DNA from: an uncultured archaeon
Lineage (GTDB): Archaea > Thermoplasmatota > Penumbrarchaeia > JASLWR01
Direction of reading: 5' to 3'
DNA length: 64,000 nt
Assembly: GCA_964342815.1 (NCBI GenBank)
Contig: CAYFHS010000002.1
Location: 32,001-96,000 of the forward strand
Shown here: piece after piece, positions 3,801 through 55,126 of the stretch
How positions within the stretch are numbered: the stretch's first letter is position 1
Layout of the letters: each line of letters opens with the position of its first letter
The notes under the pieces: model-generated
What the model saw: the letters and a program-made list of their open reading frames with translations, nothing else
Told to the model about the DNA's origin: nothing
The model's database searches: none
Position numbers and translations under genes: made by a program

Positions 3801-6800
3801 CCGATAATGGGACAACAGGCGACCTGTTTCTTTTCAACGTCACCGCATCGGATAACATAAATGTCAGCTCCATCCATATCAGCTGGAGCCATGGTGGAAA
3901 GAATGGAAATGAATCGCTGGACCGAACGGGTGGATACTGGCTTGGAAACATCTCTCTCGACCATAGTCTCGGAAATCTTACCTATATAATTTATGTCATG
4001 GATTCTTCGGGTAACTATAATATTTCCTCCAATCGAACGGTAGAGGTTTCCGACAACGACAAACCGTCGTTCACCGACAACACCGGATCGAAGGGTACGA
4101 CGGGGGATTTTCTTTACTTCAACGTCAGCGCGGCTGACAATATAGGCGTTTTTTCTGTCAACATCATCTGGAATCACGGGCTTTCAGGATCTAATCTATC
4201 CCTGGTCAAAACAGACGGCTTCTGGACGGGAAATATCATCGTGGATCACAATACTGCCGGGCTGACCTACAGGGTAATGGTGAAAGATAGCTCGGGAAAT
4301 ATTATTATCGGCCAGTTGCGAACTGTCACGGTAACTGACAATGACATTCCAATCGTCCATGCGGGTAAGGACGTCGTCGTAGAGGAGAATGGAACTGTTA
4401 CCTTCGACGCTAACGCTTCAGATAACAGTGGAATCGACAATTATACCTGGTCTTTTATTTACAATAATAGCAAAGTTGTTCTTTACGGTCCGAATCCCCA
4501 GTTCAAATTCGATGAACCGGGAAATTACACCGTGGATCTCAATGTTACGGATGCCTCCGGAAATGTCAATTCAACGCAAATCACCGTCACAGTGCTTCCC
4601 AAAGACGTTCCGGTTGAGATAGACCGGGTGCCGCCGGTGATAAATCACAATCCAAAAACGAAGGTGGAGATAAACAAGAATATCACCATCACAGCCGTGA
4701 TCACCGATAATGTTGAGGTAATGTCGGTAAAATTGTTTTACAAAAACGTGGGTGATGCAAACTATTCAAGTTTAATAATGGAGCCCACCGGGTCCATTGA
4801 CAGTTACTATGCCGTCATACCCTCTCAAAGCCAGTTAGGGAACGTCAGTTATTATATATATGCCACAGACGGGCTCAACGAGATCACGCTGCCCGGAAAC
4901 ATCAGCAGATCCTTCAGCATCACTGTCTCCGAGGAAGAAGAGCCCAAAGAAGGGCCCAAAATAAAAATAAATACACCAAAGAAAGGAGACACGATAAAAG
5001 GAAAAATCACCATAAACGTGTCCACCGTAAACGGGTACATCGGTGATGAATACGTTAATATCGTAAAGGTAGAGATCAAAATCATGGATACATCATCATA
5101 CAATCAGATCGCTGAATTTTCGAAGACAATTTCAGATAATTCATCGAATAAATGGTTCACATTCACCTGGAATACCAGCGAGCACGACGATGGGAAATAT
5201 GAAATAAACGCTATAGGATATTCCGCTGAAGATGGAAATGTTACAAATTTGACAAAGCAGATATCCACCGAAGTAGGAGTTACTGTGGAAAATGATGATA
5301 CGCCTTCAATAGCCGGGGCAGTTGCCGGAACGGTGGTTGGGGTAGCGGCGGCGGTCGGTGCCGCCACCATTGCAAGCGGAGCTGCCACAGGAGTCATCAG
5401 TGCGGGAGGAGGTGTCGCATCCACCAGCGGCTCAATATTCGGCAAATTGCTGGGATACCTGGACAAGCTTCTTGATCCCTTGCAGAAAAAGGCCGAAAGG
5501 GCGCTGGAAGAACGGACCGGGAAGGATGCTACCGAATTCTCAATTGCTTCTCCCATAATTACAAAAGGACAGATCAAATCACTCGTTATCGCCATATTTG
5601 CACTTATGATCCCACTCACTTATGTTCAGGTCAATGGGGGATTCTTTTTCACTTGGGGCGGTGACAAGGCCTTTTCCTGGACCGAATATTACCAGGCGCT
5701 TCCTTCCGTATTCCTGACGGCTGCGATCTTCCTCATCGCACTTGGCCTTGCCGAGGTTTATGCGGTCAGATTGCGAAAACAATGGACCGAGTTCAAGGTT
5801 TGGGGCGTGGGCATGTTCTCGCTTTTCATTTCCTCGTTCTTCTTCATACTACCCTTCGGTATGACTGCTCGACTGGATCAGGGATACTGGGAGAGGATCG
5901 ACAAGAAGGGTTTTGGCTACGTGGGCCTGGCCAGGTATTTTGTGACTTTGACGCTAATCCTTCCGTTCTTCCTGATGTTACTGGCCGGTCTCAAAACTGC
6001 AGGTGAATCGGGAATGTTGATCTGCCTGATGACGTTCCTCTACAGCATGATGCCCTTCGGGGAATCGCCTGGAAGATACATATTCAAATGGAAAAAATCG
6101 GTCTGGATCATAGGTGGAATCTTCTCAGCTATTGTCTTTTACGGGTGGTGGTTTCAATTCATCCCTCGAATGTTCTATTTCATATTCGGTATAATCGGAC
6201 TGGCGGGTGCAGGCTACGTCTATATTCACCTTATGAGGGATAGCAGTAACCTCAAAAAGGAACGAGAGAGGACCCTGAGAAAGACAGCCACGAAAAGATT
6301 GCATGGTGATGACGAGGATGAAGAGGACGAGGAGGATGAAGAGAAGGAAGAGGAAGAGCCCGTTATAAAAGAGGAGACCATTGAAGGCGATGATGAGGAC
6401 ACCGGGGATGATGACGAGAAAAAAGAGGAAACCGATGTATGGGATTCTGAGGAACTACCGGTACCGGTGGATGAGGGGGGAGAGGTCGAGCCGGGTGAGC
6501 CGCCTGCGCCGCCTGAAGATGTGGATGCCGAGGACCAATCAGGGATAGAAGAGGAACCGGAGCTGCAGGAACCTCCGGAGGATGAGAGGGAATTGGAAGA
6601 GCCTGCGGAGTCGGATGATTTCCCTTCTCTCGATGACGATCCCGAACCGGACGAAGCTCCCAAACCGTCAGAAGACATGGATTCTGATGAATTCTCCCCG
6701 CTGGATGACGAAGTCGAATCAGAAGAAGCGGCAGCGTCAGAGGAGATTGCGGACAGTGATGAATTTCTAGCACCGGTTGAAGAATTTGAAGAACCGCCTG

Positions 6801-31861: not shown

Positions 31862-32100
31862 GGACCTGCTCCCGTTTCACTCCGGTGTCCACTTCGTTCC
31901 GCAACACCCAGCAGGTGTTGCTACACCCTCGGTAGATGTACCTACAGGTGTAACTGCGTCACACCTGAGCCCTCGCCTTTTAAGCCTACGGGCGACGTAA
32001 GAAACGCAGGTCCGACACAAAAATAACAGAAATTAAGGGTGGGGGCACTACCCCCATGAACGGCATCTACGCCGTTCCAGTGCATTTCACAAACCTGCAC
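31862..32100 (-). ncRNA. structured element X (unidentified family, homologous to Y)
   Basis: Outer stem ggacctgc 31862-69/32006-13; hairpins at 31901-21, 31931-42, 31945-67, 31973-95, 32040-56, 32058-77 and 32080-100; conserved core shared with 54762-54834. Confidence 0.55.
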
Positions 32101-42130: not shown

Positions 42131-45100
42131 TTATAAATTCCATGATTCCAGCCCCTCTTGCGCTTGAGAGGTGTCATGTCGTTCTTCCGAATCATCTTCC
42201 TCTGCGTCCTCATCCCAATCGGTATCGGTAAACGCTTCGGGGCCGTACGAATGCATGGATTCATCCTCATCCTCGCCCTCATTCCCATCCATATCCTCGC
42301 CCTCATTCCCATCCATATCCTCGCCCTCATTCCCATCTATATCCTTATCCTCATTCCCATCTATATCCTTATCCTCATTCCCATCTATATCCTCACCCTC
42401 ATTCCCATCCATATCCTCACCCTCATTCCCTTCCATGTCCTTATTCTCATCCGCATCCTCAACCTCGCCCTCATTCCCTTCCATGCCCTTATTCCCATCC
42501 GCGTCCTCAACCTCGCTCTCATTTCCATCCATATCCTCCCCCTCATTCCCATCTATATCCTTATCCTCATTCCCATAATCATCCCCGTTTTGATCCCCGT
42601 CATAGTGGCCATAGTCTTCCGAAGCATACATCACTTTTCCCGAATCATCCGTCCGCATAGGAACCAGGTCGACAATATCGTGTTCGTCGTTTTTCGAGAA
42701 CCAATCTTCCTCCTCACTGTGCGACATTGTCGGGTATTCTTCAAAATCCGACTGATAGTTGTTATCTGCGAACGATTCGGAAAAATACTCTCCCTCGTCC
42801 TCATATTCGATGGAATCTTCTTCGCCGTATTTTTCGAATGATTCCCAGTCCTGGGAAGTATTCTCCGGCAAAAGATATTCCTCCTCGATCTCCCCATGAG
42901 AAATATATAAGGCGTCGCCTCGGCTCGTATCTTCAAACATTGGATAAGGCTCTCTCTCTAGATCGGAAACTGGAAATTCTGCATCCTTTCCCGGCCCCAT
43001 TATTCCGGAACGGCTACCGGAAGTTTTCCGTTTCCGAATCCCTCTTTCACCATATAGACGGATAGCCTCTTTCTCCATATTTTCAGCTTCTTCATCCGGC
43101 TCATTGAGAGATTCTTTTCTCTTTTTCCGCTTTGATGAATATATAACGAGCAATATTATCACCAGTACCAGGATGGAGACAATGATCAGAAAAATGTACT
43201 GGTATGCAGGACTCATTGGAAGGAACGACATCATTCCGGAACCGCCGTCATCCTCATTTTTATCCGTTATCGTGATCCTCCTCTGGTAAATGCTGCTTTC
43301 AAGCCCGGAGGCATCCCTCACCCTGAGACCGGCCGTAAAGGTTCCTTCTTTCGAATATGAATGAGTGACGTTCTCCATGGTCACCCAGTTGCTGAAGGTT
43401 CCGTCTCCGTAGATGTATTTGTACGTCCCCACTCCCATATTGTCCGATGATTCGGAAGCCGAGAAGGTCATCACCTCACCTTTTTCCACGTCATCCGTTA
43501 GGGGTTTGAAAAATGCACTGGGCGGCGTGGTGTCCAGTTTGAAGATAAAGGAGTTTGGGGTCTCGCGGTTTCCGGCCATATCAACGGAATAGTAATAAAA
43601 CACATGCTCTCCGTCCTCCAGCTCATCCCCCAATGTTCGCTGGAACTCCCTTACTTTCATATCATAATCAAAATAATAATACGTTTTGAAGACGTCTTTG
43701 GAAAAGGACTCCAGCTCAAGTGTTATATTGTTGTACCAGTCATTATCCCCGTCAGGGAACATGGGCTCCCTGGTGAATCTTGTGATGGGCGGATTGACAT
43801 CGATGATTATCTCAATATGTTGAGTTTCCTCCTTGTTGTTCGCGGTATCCACCGAGTAAAAGGAAAGATTGTGCGAGCCGATGGTGGGTATGATCTCATC
43901 CATGAGCGGATCGTAAACCAGCGGAAGTTGATCGTCCCAGTAAAAGTAGCTTACCGCTTCCGGATCATCGCTATAGAAATATATCTCCGGTATGCTGGTA
44001 TAGATTCCATTGGTCCCATCTGGTTCCTCGGGGAACAGGGTAATCGTGGTGATGGGAGATATCGTATCGGTCCTGATAACCACTTCCTTAAGGTACTCCT
44101 GATTTCCCGCTTCGTCAATTGAATAGAACGAGAGAACGTGCTCTCCTTCAGGCGATTCGAGATATCTGTTGTAGAGATTAAAGGTATCCCCGTCCCAGGA
44201 ATAAAGAGTTTCAACCAGCTCATCCGCGATAAGCTCTATACGTACCGTCTCGTTGTACCATTCGCTGCTATCAACTGGTGAATCATCGATTCTCATGTCT
44301 GCAACCGTTATGGGGGCCATGGTGTCGATTTTCAGAATCATTTCTTTCGGCTTTTCAATGTTCCCCGCCTCATCTTCGGACCAATAATAAAGAACATGCT
44401 CCCCTTCGAGGGTTCCGACATTCCCATCGTACAGCTTCTCATCACCGTCATCCCACTTGTAAAATATCTTTGCCTCGGGCTCGCCCGATAGCTCGATGTT
44501 GGGATGTGTGACGTACCAGCCGTTGAATAGAGGACCGTCGGGTTTCTCGGGGATCAGTAACATGACGGTTTCCGGGAGAAGAGTGTCAACCATGTAATTG
44601 TACGTTCGGGTCAACTCCCGGTTGGAGTATTCGTCAACCGAATAGAAGTTTAGATTATTGATGCCCTCGGGAACTTGAAATGCAGATGTATAGATATTTG
44701 TCTCATTTTCCTCATCATTCCAGTAATAGTAGGTTGTTGCTAAGGGCTCGGTGCTCAGGGAGATCTCAGGTTCGGTAACATAATAACCGTTCTTGCCATC
44801 CGGGACCACGGGATTTACCGATATGGTGGTCACCGGAGGAAGTGTATCCATGTGTATTATCCCGAAATCATAGTTGGCACCCTCATCAGCCGTTACAATC
44901 ATGATGACCGTGGAAAACGTCGAGCCGAAACCGGGAAGAGGGTGTTTGCCGTAATCCGAGGCGTCTAGATTCATATAGTCCACTTCCACGCTCGTAGAGC
45001 CCATCTTGACAACCCATACCGCAAAATCGTTACCTCCCCCTTTTCCCTTGAATTCCAGACCAAAACCTTCCTGGCCATTCCTGAACTTGTAGTAATCGGC

Positions 45101-54732: not shown

Positions 54733-54839
54733 CGAGACCAGCGACCCCCAGGCGAACGTCCGTAGGAAGTCAGGTGCTGACTTTCCGAGGGCGCAGGCGC
54801 ATCTACTGATGCACCGGAACGTAGTGGGCGCTGGTCTCG
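54733..54839 (+). ncRNA. structured element Y (unidentified family, homologous to X)
   Basis: 11-bp outer stem cgagaccagcg/cgctggtctcg; hairpins at 54765-86 and 54796-815; conserved core shared with X. Confidence 0.55.
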
Positions 54840-54876
54840 TCTATGAACCGATAAGTAGAAGTTCAATATCACTAAA

Positions 54877-54932
54877 GGTCGGCTCACCGCCGACCCTGAG
54901 GGCAAGCCCTCTTTCTATTGATTTTTCTTTTT
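54877..54932 (+). terminator. GC hairpins followed by a T-rich tract (terminator-like)
   Basis: ggtcggc/gccgacc 54877-95; gagggc/gccctc 54898-911; then tttctattgatttttcttttt. Confidence 0.4.
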
Positions 54933-55126
54933 AGATCTAGTCGCCGTTTGCTGAAGCTCGGCGACCCTCTTAAGATAGAAGGAATCATAGGTTAAAAGAA
55001 GTGATAGTATCTTAGGATAACACAGTATGATCCTTCCAGATACCTGTTCCCTGCGGAAGAATCTACAAAAGTAATAAAAAGGTGATACGTCATAATTGTT
55101 TTAATCTGAAAGTCTAGGGTGGTAAG

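What the first reader, a model, noticed from the sequence alone, without database searches (positions are those of the whole stretch)
31862..32013. Unidentified structured-RNA family: element X shares an invariant core and a covarying helix with element Y at 54.8 kb
Seen in sequence: X on the minus strand (31945->31882) reads GTAGG-tacatcta-CCGAGGGTGTAG-caacacctgctgggtgttg-CGGAACGAAGTGGACACCGG. Y on the plus strand (54762-54834) reads GTAGG-aagtcaggtgctgacttt-CCGAGGGCGCAG-gcgcatctactgatgcac-CGGAACGTAGTGGGCGCTGG. The lower-case spacers share no sequence, yet each folds as a hairpin. The junction strands are nearly invariant, and their differences mostly compensate: GGUGU pairs ACACC in X, and GGCGC pairs GCGCU in Y. 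Both cores sit inside an outer GACC/GGUC stem and both carry an upstream AGGCGA. Inference: conserved junction nucleotides, freely varying peripheral hairpins and covariation are the signature of a functional RNA fold (ligand-binding or catalytic), not a simple DNA repeat. The core partly recalls SAH (CCGAGGRGCGC...AACG..GCGCUC) and glycine (CCGAAGGCGCA..GAAAC) riboswitch elements but lacks their required segments, so it may be an undescribed class. X is antisense to both flanking genes, which argues against a purely 5'-UTR role.
Basis: partly seen in the sequence, partly recalled or inferred. Interest (0 to 1): 0.85.

Follow-up and report, generated by a model that had tools for sequence, protein, structure and literature searches.

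The report
Mobile hairpin repeat, not a riboswitch
Elements X and Y are two of more than 100 copies per genome of a roughly 75-base, hairpin-rich repeat found in a few marine Thermoplasmatota archaea; it behaves like small mobile DNA carrying an internal "address" that matches its insertion site, not like a dedicated riboswitch or ribozyme gene.

Summary
X and Y share an invariant core, two freely varying hairpins and a covarying helix, and no Rfam family matches. They are not a two-member RNA family. The unit a5-GTAGG-hp1-CCGA-a'-AG-hp2-CGGAACGAAGTGG-a3 occurs at least 102 times in this genome and at least 112-114 times in two sister species. It occurs 0-2 times in 34 other genomes of the class. 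Copies lie on both strands, with no orientation bias towards neighbouring genes (14 same, 14 opposite), and break the assembly. Y is absent from the orthologous site in two sister species. X is a 63-nt unit nested inside another unit; two copies of that host unit elsewhere in the genome are empty at exactly that point. The central strand a' pairs with the left flank and with the unit's own 3' end, and in most nested insertions it matches the target. This resembles the guide/target logic of IS200/IS605 and REP elements, but no transposase could be tied to the units. The fold is strand-specific, so single-stranded DNA or RNA remains open. This scan already met the family on other DNA of this genome (e1-4878220, e1-5506410, e1-5506381 and others). 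Verdict: new variant of a known kind, moderately interesting.

The parts
31862..32013 (-). Element X as a whole: a composite of one unit nested inside another
   Evidence: The outer unit is closed by GGACCTGC (32013-32006) pairing with GCAGGTCC (31869-31862).
31948..32013 (-). 5' part of the outer (host) unit: closing strand, GTAGG (31989-31985), hp1, CGA, a' GGGCTC (31972-31967), AG, hp2 (31964-31948)
   Evidence: The same host unit, without the insert, stands at G000:C17 about 76900-77040 and G000:C3 about 105050-105190.
31885..31947 (-).
   Evidence: One search gives filled versus empty paralogues. One search shows contigs of four runs joining 31883 to 31947, skipping 63 nt, with 5 letters (ACACC) that fit both sides.
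31946..31951 (-). a5 of the inner unit (ACACCT): 4 nt from the host hairpin plus the first 2 nt of the insert; pairs with a'
31931..31945 (-). GTAGG tag (31945-31941) and hairpin hp1 (31942-31931) of the inner unit
   Evidence: G19 and A21 are invariant; the hp1 helix is 90% paired with changes on both sides at all 5 pairs.
31923..31928 (-). a' (GGGTGT), the central 'guide' strand, complementary to a5 and to a3
31902..31920 (-). Hairpin hp2 of the inner unit
   Evidence: 96% paired, 6 of 7 pairs with changes on both sides.
31884..31901 (-). Tail CGGAACGAAGTGG containing the mini-hairpin AC-GAA-GT (31901-31889), then a3 ACACC (31888-31884)
   Evidence: mini-hairpin 98% paired; AU 18/GC 5 and CG 17/UA 4; a'/a3 helix.
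31862..31884 (-). 3' part of the outer unit: tail CGGAGTGAAACGG, a3 GAGC, closing strand
54733..54839 (+). Element Y: one long-form unit closed by an 11-bp stem, CGAGACCAGCG (54733-54743) with CGCTGGTCTCG (54829-54839)
   Evidence: It has no counterpart at the orthologous site of G001 and G003.
54756..54794 (+). Y: a5 ACGTCC (54756-54761), GTAGG (54762-54766), hp1 (54765-54786), CCGA, a' GGGCGC (54789-54794)
54797..54832 (+). Y: hp2 (54797-54814), tail CGGAACGTAGTGG (54815-54827), a3 GCGCT (54828-54832)

Best explanation
X and Y are copies of a lineage-specific, non-coding, non-autonomous mobile repeat of an uncultured marine Thermoplasmatota archaeon. The basic unit is about 75 nt: a5 (RCRYCC), GTAGG, hairpin 1, CCGA, a' (GGRYGC), AG, hairpin 2, then CGGAACGAAGTGG (itself a 2-bp GAA mini-hairpin), then a3 (RCRYC). 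Units insert next to or inside one another and build composites such as X. SHOWN: the high copy number, the restriction to one archaeal family, presence/absence at orthologous and paralogous sites, nesting, the strand-specific conserved fold, and the complementarity of a' to both the 5' flank and the 3' end. INFERRED: the unit moves as single-stranded DNA in the manner of IS200/IS605 elements and REPs. An enzyme supplied in trans would bind the hairpin(s). The strand a', two bases 5' of the foot of hairpin 2, would act as a guide. It would pair with the 4-6 nt target on the left and with the element's own last 4-5 nt, 13 nt 3' of hairpin 2, so fixing both cleavage sites and the insertion site. 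The enzyme is not identified. Any RNA-level effect of transcribed copies would be secondary.
For: Copy number and spread:
- nhmmer finds 85 units at E<1e-2 on 37 contigs and on both strands; 16 lie within 500 nt of contig ends.
- The covariance model finds at least 102 units in G000, at least 114 in G001 and at least 112 in G003 (each capped by the search). It finds 2, 2 and 1 in three other genomes and 0 in the remaining 31 genomes of the class.
- 17 metagenome contigs carry the unit; most of those that match G000 outside the unit are 78-92% identical to it.

Gene context:
- 62 of 85 units lie outside crude ORFs that cover 89% of the genome.
- In tandem-gene contexts 14 units are co-oriented with the genes and 14 are opposite.

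Mobility:
- Y is absent at the orthologous HerA-like intergenic site of G001 and G003. G001 has other units there instead.
- Five further G001-filled versus G000-empty sites were found.
- The X inner unit is a 63-nt insert relative to two paralogous host units (the joint appears).
- One unit in C6 is an insert relative to its paralogue in C3.
- Composites of 187-310 nt recur at 93-100% identity.

Fold:
- The three helices are 89.5% paired against 68.5% in shuffles (0/500) in G000.
- They are 90% against 68% (0/500) on 44 distinct units, mostly from G001 and G003.
- The mini-hairpin is 98% paired.

Guide logic:
- a' pairs with a5 and with a3 better than any of 2000 partner permutations (per-pair counts).
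- In nested insertions the last 4-5 nt of the target equal or resemble the last 4-5 nt of the insert and complement a'. Examples are ACAC with GGGTGT (X), GCAC with GGGTGC (L017), GCAT with GGATGC (C29), and the unique a' GGATAC sitting at the unique target GTATC (C45).
- This layout (guide 5' of the hairpin foot, target on the left flank, matching end on the right) is the one described for IS200/IS605 and REP in PMC6006769.

Strand specificity:
- The GTAGG strand folds better than its complement in 52 of 61 units (p=2e-9).
- G-T pairs outnumber A-C mismatches 40:18 and 28:14.

Y1 (HUH) transposase genes exist in the repeat-rich sisters G001 and G003.
Against: - No transposase is tied to the units.
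- PF01797 finds nothing in G000, which is 88.9% complete.
- The Y1 genes of G001 and G003 carry their own, different end hairpins. Neither covariance model finds a unit at their ends.
- Y1 homologues also occur in class members that have no units: G014, G010, G006 and G012.
- No gene is flanked by inverted units as in a REPtron; the only gene with units on both sides is pnp.
- Some nested events do not fit the guide rule on the left side (C25: target TCTC against end GAAC).
- The flanking 4-5 nt repeats could equally be ordinary target-site duplications.
- A strand-specific fold with G-U/G-T pairs is also what a transcribed RNA element would show.
- Transcription could not be tested.
Confidence: 0.7

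Rival explanations
1. A new class of cis- or trans-acting structured RNA (riboswitch or ribozyme). The conserved junction would bind a ligand or catalyse a reaction, and the copies would be independent RNA genes.
For: The junctions are invariant, the hairpins covary, and the fold is strand-specific. No Rfam family matches. RNA-fold z-scores are -3.8 and -4.9.
Against: There are at least 100 copies per genome with no gene-class association or orientation bias (14:14). Copies are nested inside each other, which would disrupt the host copy's fold. Sister species differ in presence at orthologous sites. a' pairs with two mutually exclusive partners, and one of them is partly flanking DNA.
Confidence: 0.05
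2. The repeat is mobile DNA, but many copies have been co-opted as RNA elements when transcribed (3'-end stabilisers, terminators, processing sites or small RNAs), as proposed for bacterial REPs. Selection on RNA would then help to keep the fold. This can hold together with the best explanation.
For: G-T/G-U pairs outnumber A-C mismatches, and the sense strand is more stable in 52 of 61 units. Convergent intergenic regions are somewhat enriched, 14 of 50 against 17-18% background. REPs are reported to act as RNA elements (PMC3733652).
Against: Half of the copies between co-directional genes face the wrong way. No expression data could be obtained. Strand asymmetry is equally expected for top-strand single-stranded DNA transposition.
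Confidence: 0.2
3. An ordinary double-strand cut-and-paste MITE of a DDE-type insertion sequence. The closing stems would be terminal inverted repeats, and the 4-5 nt flanking repeats would be target-site duplications.
For: Y has an 11-bp terminal inverted repeat and the X host unit an 8-bp one. Inserts are flanked by 3-5 nt direct repeats.
Against: Basic units such as the X inner unit lack terminal inverted repeats. The flanking repeats are complementary to an internal strand and covary with it. In some events the left and right repeats differ while one still matches a'. The fold is strand-asymmetric. No multicopy transposase gene is assembled in G000.
Confidence: 0.1
4. A retro-element or ribozyme-driven element that spreads through an RNA intermediate, like a retrozyme or group II intron, with a' acting like an exon-binding site.
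For: The internal strand complementary to the 5' flank recalls EBS/IBS or internal-guide pairing.
Against: No reverse transcriptase (PF00078) was found in G000 or G001, only in G003. No ribozyme or intron family in Rfam matches.
Confidence: 0.03

Closest known systems
GTAG-tagged REP / BIME / REPIN elements with RAYT (TnpA-REP) of bacteria
   Same: Both are short, extragenic and high-copy. Both carry a conserved GT[AG]G-type tag directly 5' of a hairpin whose stem varies by compensatory change, with G-T pairs. Both cluster in mosaic arrays in both orientations and differ between related species (PMC3733652).
   Different: The host is archaeal; GTAG REPs were reported only in Proteobacteria, Cyanobacteria, Chloroflexi and PVC, and RAYT classes were not seen in Archaea. 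The unit is about 75 nt with three hairpins and a 6-nt guide-like strand, not a single 20-40 nt palindrome. No RAYT gene, and no gene flanked by units, was found.
IS200/IS605 insertion sequences and their gene-less derivatives (PATEs)
   Same: The layout matches: guide strand just 5' of a hairpin foot, complementary target on the left flank, and a matching element end about 10-13 nt 3' of the hairpin. The structure is strand-specific. The elements are non-autonomous copies (PMC6006769).
   Different: One shared guide and hairpin would serve both ends. The guide is 5-6 nt, Watson-Crick, and diversified among copies. The ends of the Y1-bearing IS copies in the sister genomes are not detectably related to the unit. 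G000 has no detectable Y1 gene.
Modular bacterial repeats (BOX, ERIC, Correia, RUP)
   Same: They are mosaic, modular, strongly folding intergenic repeats with variable module composition.
   Different: There is no sequence relation. Those are bacterial and mostly linked to DDE-type insertion sequences, or unexplained. None is known (from memory, not tested here) to carry an internal strand matching its insertion site.
SAH and glycine riboswitches
   Same: Short strings such as CCGAGG...GCGC and GGAAC occur in both.
   Different: cmscan finds neither family at gathering score nor at E<=10. Copy number, orientation and nesting are incompatible with a riboswitch.

Membership tests
GTAG REP / REPtron (RAYT-served) | GT[AG]G-type tetranucleotide directly 5' of a hairpin, not itself base-paired | tested here: met
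   GTAGG, GCAGG or GTAAG precede hp1 in all 25 aligned units, and G19 and A21 are invariant. The last G(G) of the tag, however, closes hp1.
GTAG REP / REPtron (RAYT-served) | Single short (about 20-40 nt) imperfect palindrome as the unit | tested here: not met
   The unit is about 75 nt with hp1, hp2, a mini-hairpin and the three strands a5/a'/a3.
GTAG REP / REPtron (RAYT-served) | High-copy, mainly extragenic, clustered in both orientations | tested here: met
   At least 102 copies; 62 of 85 outside crude ORFs; adjacent pairs occur in all four orientation combinations.
GTAG REP / REPtron (RAYT-served) | A RAYT (class 2 Y1 HUH) gene in the genome, typically flanked by the REPs | tested here: not met
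   PF01797 is absent from G000. The Y1 genes of G001 and G003 look like class 1 (Y...Q motif) and are not flanked by units. The only unit-flanked gene is pnp. G000 is 88.9% complete, so absence is not proven.
IS200/IS605-derived non-autonomous element (PATE-like) | Guide 5' of the hairpin foot, complementary to the left-flank target and to the element's 3' end | tested here: met
   The a'/a5 and a'/a3 helices covary. Most of 10 nested insertions fit, including a unique guide at a unique target. One clear exception is C25.
IS200/IS605-derived non-autonomous element (PATE-like) | Ends homologous to those of a full-length IS encoding TnpA in the same or a related genome | tested here: not met
   Models R1 and R2 give no significant match at the ends of the three full-length Y1 loci or of the two gene-less type-A derivatives in G000. 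There is only an eye-level resemblance, TGCAG-hairpin-CGAACGATGGG.
IS200/IS605-derived non-autonomous element (PATE-like) | Strand-specific single-stranded DNA intermediate; insertion without target duplication | not testable with these tools
   Strand asymmetry of the fold is shown. Whether the 4-5 nt repeats are target plus element end, or a duplication, cannot be decided from sequence.
Riboswitch (SAH RF01057, glycine RF00504 or a new class) | Match to the family model; location in the 5' leader of a regulated gene, in sense orientation; few copies tied to a pathway | tested here: not met
   No Rfam match. X is antisense to both neighbours. Orientation is 14:14, there are at least 100 copies, and the neighbours are unrelated (DUF4405, PKD, HerA-like).
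Known self-cleaving ribozymes (hammerhead, twister, pistol, hatchet, HDV-like and others in Rfam 15) | Match to the family covariance model | tested here: not met
   cmscan of the window at gathering score, and of both regions at E<=10, gave none. Catalysis itself is not testable here.

The most novel reading that the evidence does not exclude
The units are a previously undescribed kind of miniature, self-addressed mobile element in archaea. A diversifying 5-6 nt internal guide (a') would choose the insertion site by Watson-Crick pairing and define the element's own 3' end, so that single mutations retarget the element. It would be served by an enzyme that is not a recognisable RAYT, either a divergent HUH protein or something else. 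That would make it a naturally programmable single-stranded DNA insertion device of about 75 nt.
Probability: 0.3. Interest if true: 0.75.

Novelty: new variant of a known kind. Interest (0 to 1): 0.5.

Why it matters
The work removes a false lead: this is not a new riboswitch or ribozyme class. Compensatory change plus invariant junctions cannot by itself separate an RNA gene from a structured mobile repeat. In its place is an apparently undescribed archaeal counterpart of bacterial REP and IS200-type hairpin elements. According to the papers read here, GTAG REPs and RAYTs have not been reported in Archaea. The unit carries an internal strand that tracks its insertion site. If the guide model holds, the family is a compact natural system for sequence-addressed single-stranded DNA insertion. 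It would also be a useful marker of recent genome dynamics in an uncultured marine lineage, and it accounts for many contig breaks in these assembled genomes.

Tried and rejected
- Rfam at gathering score on the window, and at E<=10 on both regions, gave only chance miRNA/ctRNA-like hits.
- RNA evidence: no RNA holder was listed among public runs.
- Laying contigs of four DNA runs gave no piece spanning X. Contigs stop inside the repeat and depth piles up about tenfold. The 63-nt skipping joint may come from paralogues rather than alleles, so it says nothing about polymorphism at the X locus itself.
- Empty site for the whole X composite in the sister species: synteny breaks right after the DUF4405 gene in G001, so no comparison was possible.
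- Transposase hunt: PF01797 and PF07282 are absent from G000. An IS110-type gene occurs only on one small G000 contig and not in G001 or G003. Reverse transcriptase occurs only in G003. No protein family of three or more copies at 80% identity or above is assembled in G000. A two-copy 131-135 aa ORF near one composite has no informative Pfam match.
- Y1 elements of G001 and G003: the full-unit and half-unit models found no unit at their ends, and a half-unit HMM does not hit the G000 gene-less type-A derivatives. Type-A homologues do not co-distribute with the units.
- REPtron-like search for genes flanked by units found only pnp.
- The 1-kb multicopy sequence beside the G001 type-A Y1 gene is a TFB paralogue, not an insertion sequence.
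- Viral contigs: 0 matches.
- Precise borders of the G001-specific composites could not be set, because the intergenic DNA is too diverged.

Full report
**1. The observation**

They align only over the core; the two spacers are unrelated but self-complementary. Both regions fold well below shuffled controls as RNA (z -3.8 and -4.9) and as DNA. Rfam 15 has no match in the window at gathering score. At E<=10, neither region gave anything beyond chance miRNA/ctRNA-like hits. So the SAH and glycine resemblance is not membership.

**2. It is a large repeat family**

A strict pattern taken from X and Y hits six places in the 4.35-Mb assembly, against none for the reversed control.

- An HMM of six cores finds 71 units at E<1e-3 and 85 at E<1e-2. 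They lie on 37 contigs and on both strands, and 16 are within 500 nt of a contig end.
- A covariance model (R1) finds at least 102 units in this genome, at least 114 in the same-genus genome G001 and at least 112 in the same-family genome G003.
- R1 finds 2, 2 and 1 units in three other genomes and none in the other 31 genomes of the class.
- Of 17 metagenome contigs with the motif, most of those that match G000 outside the unit are 78-92% identical to it. Viral contigs gave none.

The relatives are labelled Thermoplasmatota archaeon or uncultured archaeon, and multiple TFB genes agree with an archaeon.

**3. Anatomy**

The unit is a5 (RCRYCC) - GTAGG - hp1 - CCGA - a' (GGRYGC) - AG - hp2 - CGGAACGAAGTGG - a3 (RCRYC).

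- On 25 units from this genome, the helices a5/a', hp1 and hp2 are 89.5% paired against 68.5% in shuffles (0/500). Fifteen of 18 pairs show changes on both sides, and sliding the partners drops pairing to 35-44%.
It is 86% paired, and the pair at columns 53/93 is UA 14, CG 9.
- The same central column therefore covaries with two partners. Own-partner pairing beats all 2000 permutations for both.
- The tail holds a 2-bp mini-hairpin with a GAA-type loop: AC-GAA-GT, GC-GAA-GC or AT-GAA-AT. It is 98% paired with compensatory change. From memory, not tested here, d(GCGAAGC) is a classic hyper-stable DNA mini-hairpin, which is a lead towards a DNA-level structure.
- Forty-four distinct units, mostly from G001 and G003, give the same picture (90% against 68%, 0/500). 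That alignment was fitted to the model.
- The fold is strand-specific. The GTAGG strand is more stable than its complement in 52 of 61 units (p=2e-9). G-T pairs outnumber A-C mismatches 40:18 and 28:14.

**4. Behaviour**

Gene context:
- Units avoid ORFs: 62 of 85 lie outside crude ORFs that cover 89% of the genome.
- Between co-directional genes, 14 units face the same way as the genes and 14 the opposite way.
- The neighbours of X and Y are unrelated (DUF4405, PKD, HerA-like).

Y locus:
- The orthologous intergenic region exists in G001 and G003, and Y has no counterpart in either.
- At the same point G001 has a 38-nt hairpin. Further on it has an X-like composite that this genome lacks.
- Five more sites are filled in G001 and empty here.

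X locus:
- X is a composite. Its core is a 63-nt unit (31947->31885) sitting between hp2 and the CGGAG tail of an enclosing unit.
- The same enclosing unit stands intact at G000:C17 (about 76.9-77.0 kb) and G000:C3 (about 105.1 kb), with hp2 directly followed by the tail.
- Contigs of four public DNA runs show the corresponding joint: it skips 63 nt, with 5 letters shared by both sides. These contigs may come from such paralogues.

Other evidence:
- Another unit in C6 is an insert relative to its paralogue in C3.
- Composites of 187-310 nt recur at 93-100% identity, and none carries a gene.

**5. The internal strand matches the site**

In the nested insertions read, the insert starts with C(C/T)G(T/C)A(G/A). 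It ends with 4-5 nt that repeat or resemble the last 4-5 nt of the target, and both are complementary to the 3' half of a'.

| Event | Target / end | a' |
|---|---|---|
| X | ACAC | GGGTGT |
| G001 copy (L017) | GCAC | GGGTGC |
| C29 | GCAT | GGATGC |
| C45 | GTATC (unique target) | GGATAC (unique guide) |

Some events fit only on one side; in C25 the target is TCTC and the end is GAAC. So part of a5 is flanking DNA, and P1 (the a5/a' helix) forms across the junction.

This is the arrangement described for IS200/IS605 ends and for REPs: a guide just 5' of the hairpin foot pairs with the left-flank target and with the element's last bases (PMC6006769). Here one guide and one hairpin would serve both ends. 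A target-site duplication chosen by a' cannot be excluded.

**6. The missing enzyme**

- PF01797 (Y1 HUH transposase) and PF07282 are not found in this 88.9%-complete assembly.
- The repeat-rich sisters have Y1 genes. G001 has two full-length genes of different kinds (type A, 155 aa, at C65; type B, 163 aa, at C158), and G003 has one type B. The repeat-poor G002 has none.
- Type B is an ordinary IS200-like element with its own end hairpins.
- Type A has two gene-less derivatives in this genome, on C36 and C40. Their right end reads TGCAG-hairpin-CGAACGATGGG. That resembles the unit's TGCAG-hp2-CGGAACGAAGTGGG only by eye.
- Neither covariance model, nor a half-unit HMM, finds a unit at any Y1 end.
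- Type-A homologues also occur in unit-free genomes.
- An IS110-type gene occurs only on one small contig here. Reverse transcriptase occurs only in G003.
- No multicopy protein gene is assembled.
- The only gene with units on both sides is pnp.

The single-stranded DNA mechanism is therefore inferred from anatomy alone.

**7. RNA or DNA**

No RNA run holds the region, so transcription is untested. Several points argue against a dedicated ligand-binding or catalytic RNA gene: copy number, nesting that splits host units, random orientation, turnover between species, and a helix strand partly made of flanking DNA. They do not exclude that transcribed copies act as RNA elements, as proposed for REPs (PMC3733652).

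**8. Comparison and novelty**

The closest known kinds are GTAG-tagged REP/BIME elements and IS200/IS605-derived gene-less elements.

- Membership in the REP/RAYT family fails on two defining features: a single short palindrome as the unit, and an associated RAYT gene.
- Membership in the IS200-derived class fails on homology of the ends to a TnpA-bearing IS.
- The papers read report GTAG REPs only in bacterial phyla and only class 1.1 Y1 transposases in Archaea.
- A full-text search found no description of such repeats in Thermoplasmatota.

I file it as a new variant of a known kind. Earlier agents of this scan described the same family from other parts of this genome. I re-derived the copy number, the turnover between species and the site-matching strand independently. 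I add the X- and Y-specific dissection, the tail mini-hairpin, the strand-asymmetry statistics, and the negative tests on the Y1 link.

Noticed in passing
window 54870-54960 (+): Downstream of Y lie three further GC-rich hairpins: GGTCGGCTCACCGCCGACC, GAGGGCAAGCCCTC followed by a T-run, and GTCGCCG...CGGCGAC. The first two are conserved in G001 at the same site and look like terminators of the HerA-like gene rather than units.
   Followed up: partly
G000:C36 about 42980-43117 and G000:C40 about 4970-5104 (L086, L087): Two copies of a gene-less derivative, about 140 nt, of the type-A Y1 (IS200-like) element whose intact copy is at G001:C65:2901-3365. The left end and right end are joined without the transposase gene, a PATE-like relic.
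   Followed up: partly
G001:C158:39089-39454 and G003:C1:9184-9555 (L081, L080): An orthologous solo-TnpA IS200-type element (163 aa, HAH and YIERQ motifs) with end hairpins CCAGTGCC-TTTA-GGCACTGG and CCAGCTCC-TTTA-GGGGCTGG occurs in both sister species. It is not found in this genome.
   Followed up: partly
G000:C2:179745-179930, C2:227169-227354, C23:52570-52756, C5:94001-94187, and C3:137660-137990 with C6:45456-45844: Larger composites of 187-330 nt share the termini ATGAAAAACCACTTTT and GTCTGTATTTCCTAWATGATAAAAAAA around different inner units. This suggests a second, carrier-type non-coding element in which units ride.
   Followed up: partly
G000:C11:20126-22504 (L078:1127-3505): This is a bacterial-type polynucleotide phosphorylase gene (two RNase PH domains, KH and S1) in an archaeal genome, with repeat units on both sides. 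It is unusual for an archaeon.
   Followed up: no
G030:C624:21301-21392 (L051:1501-1592, minus strand): A single canonical unit sits in a genome of a different family (f7), with no other similarity to G000, and appears to lie inside a 271-aa ORF. It could be a horizontal arrival or an in-gene insertion.
   Followed up: partly
G000:C65:241-1173, C14:67428-68369, C2:3-418; G001:C65 (L079:2414-3346): There are several TFB (TFIIB-like) paralogues at 80-89% nucleotide identity. One lies beside the type-A Y1 gene in G001.
   Followed up: partly
G001:C65:19437-19475 (orthologous to window about 54733): Exactly where Y sits in this genome, G001 has a 38-nt hairpin that also begins CGAG and ends CTCG. 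It could be a half-unit, a footprint or a preferred palindromic target; this is unexplained.
   Followed up: no
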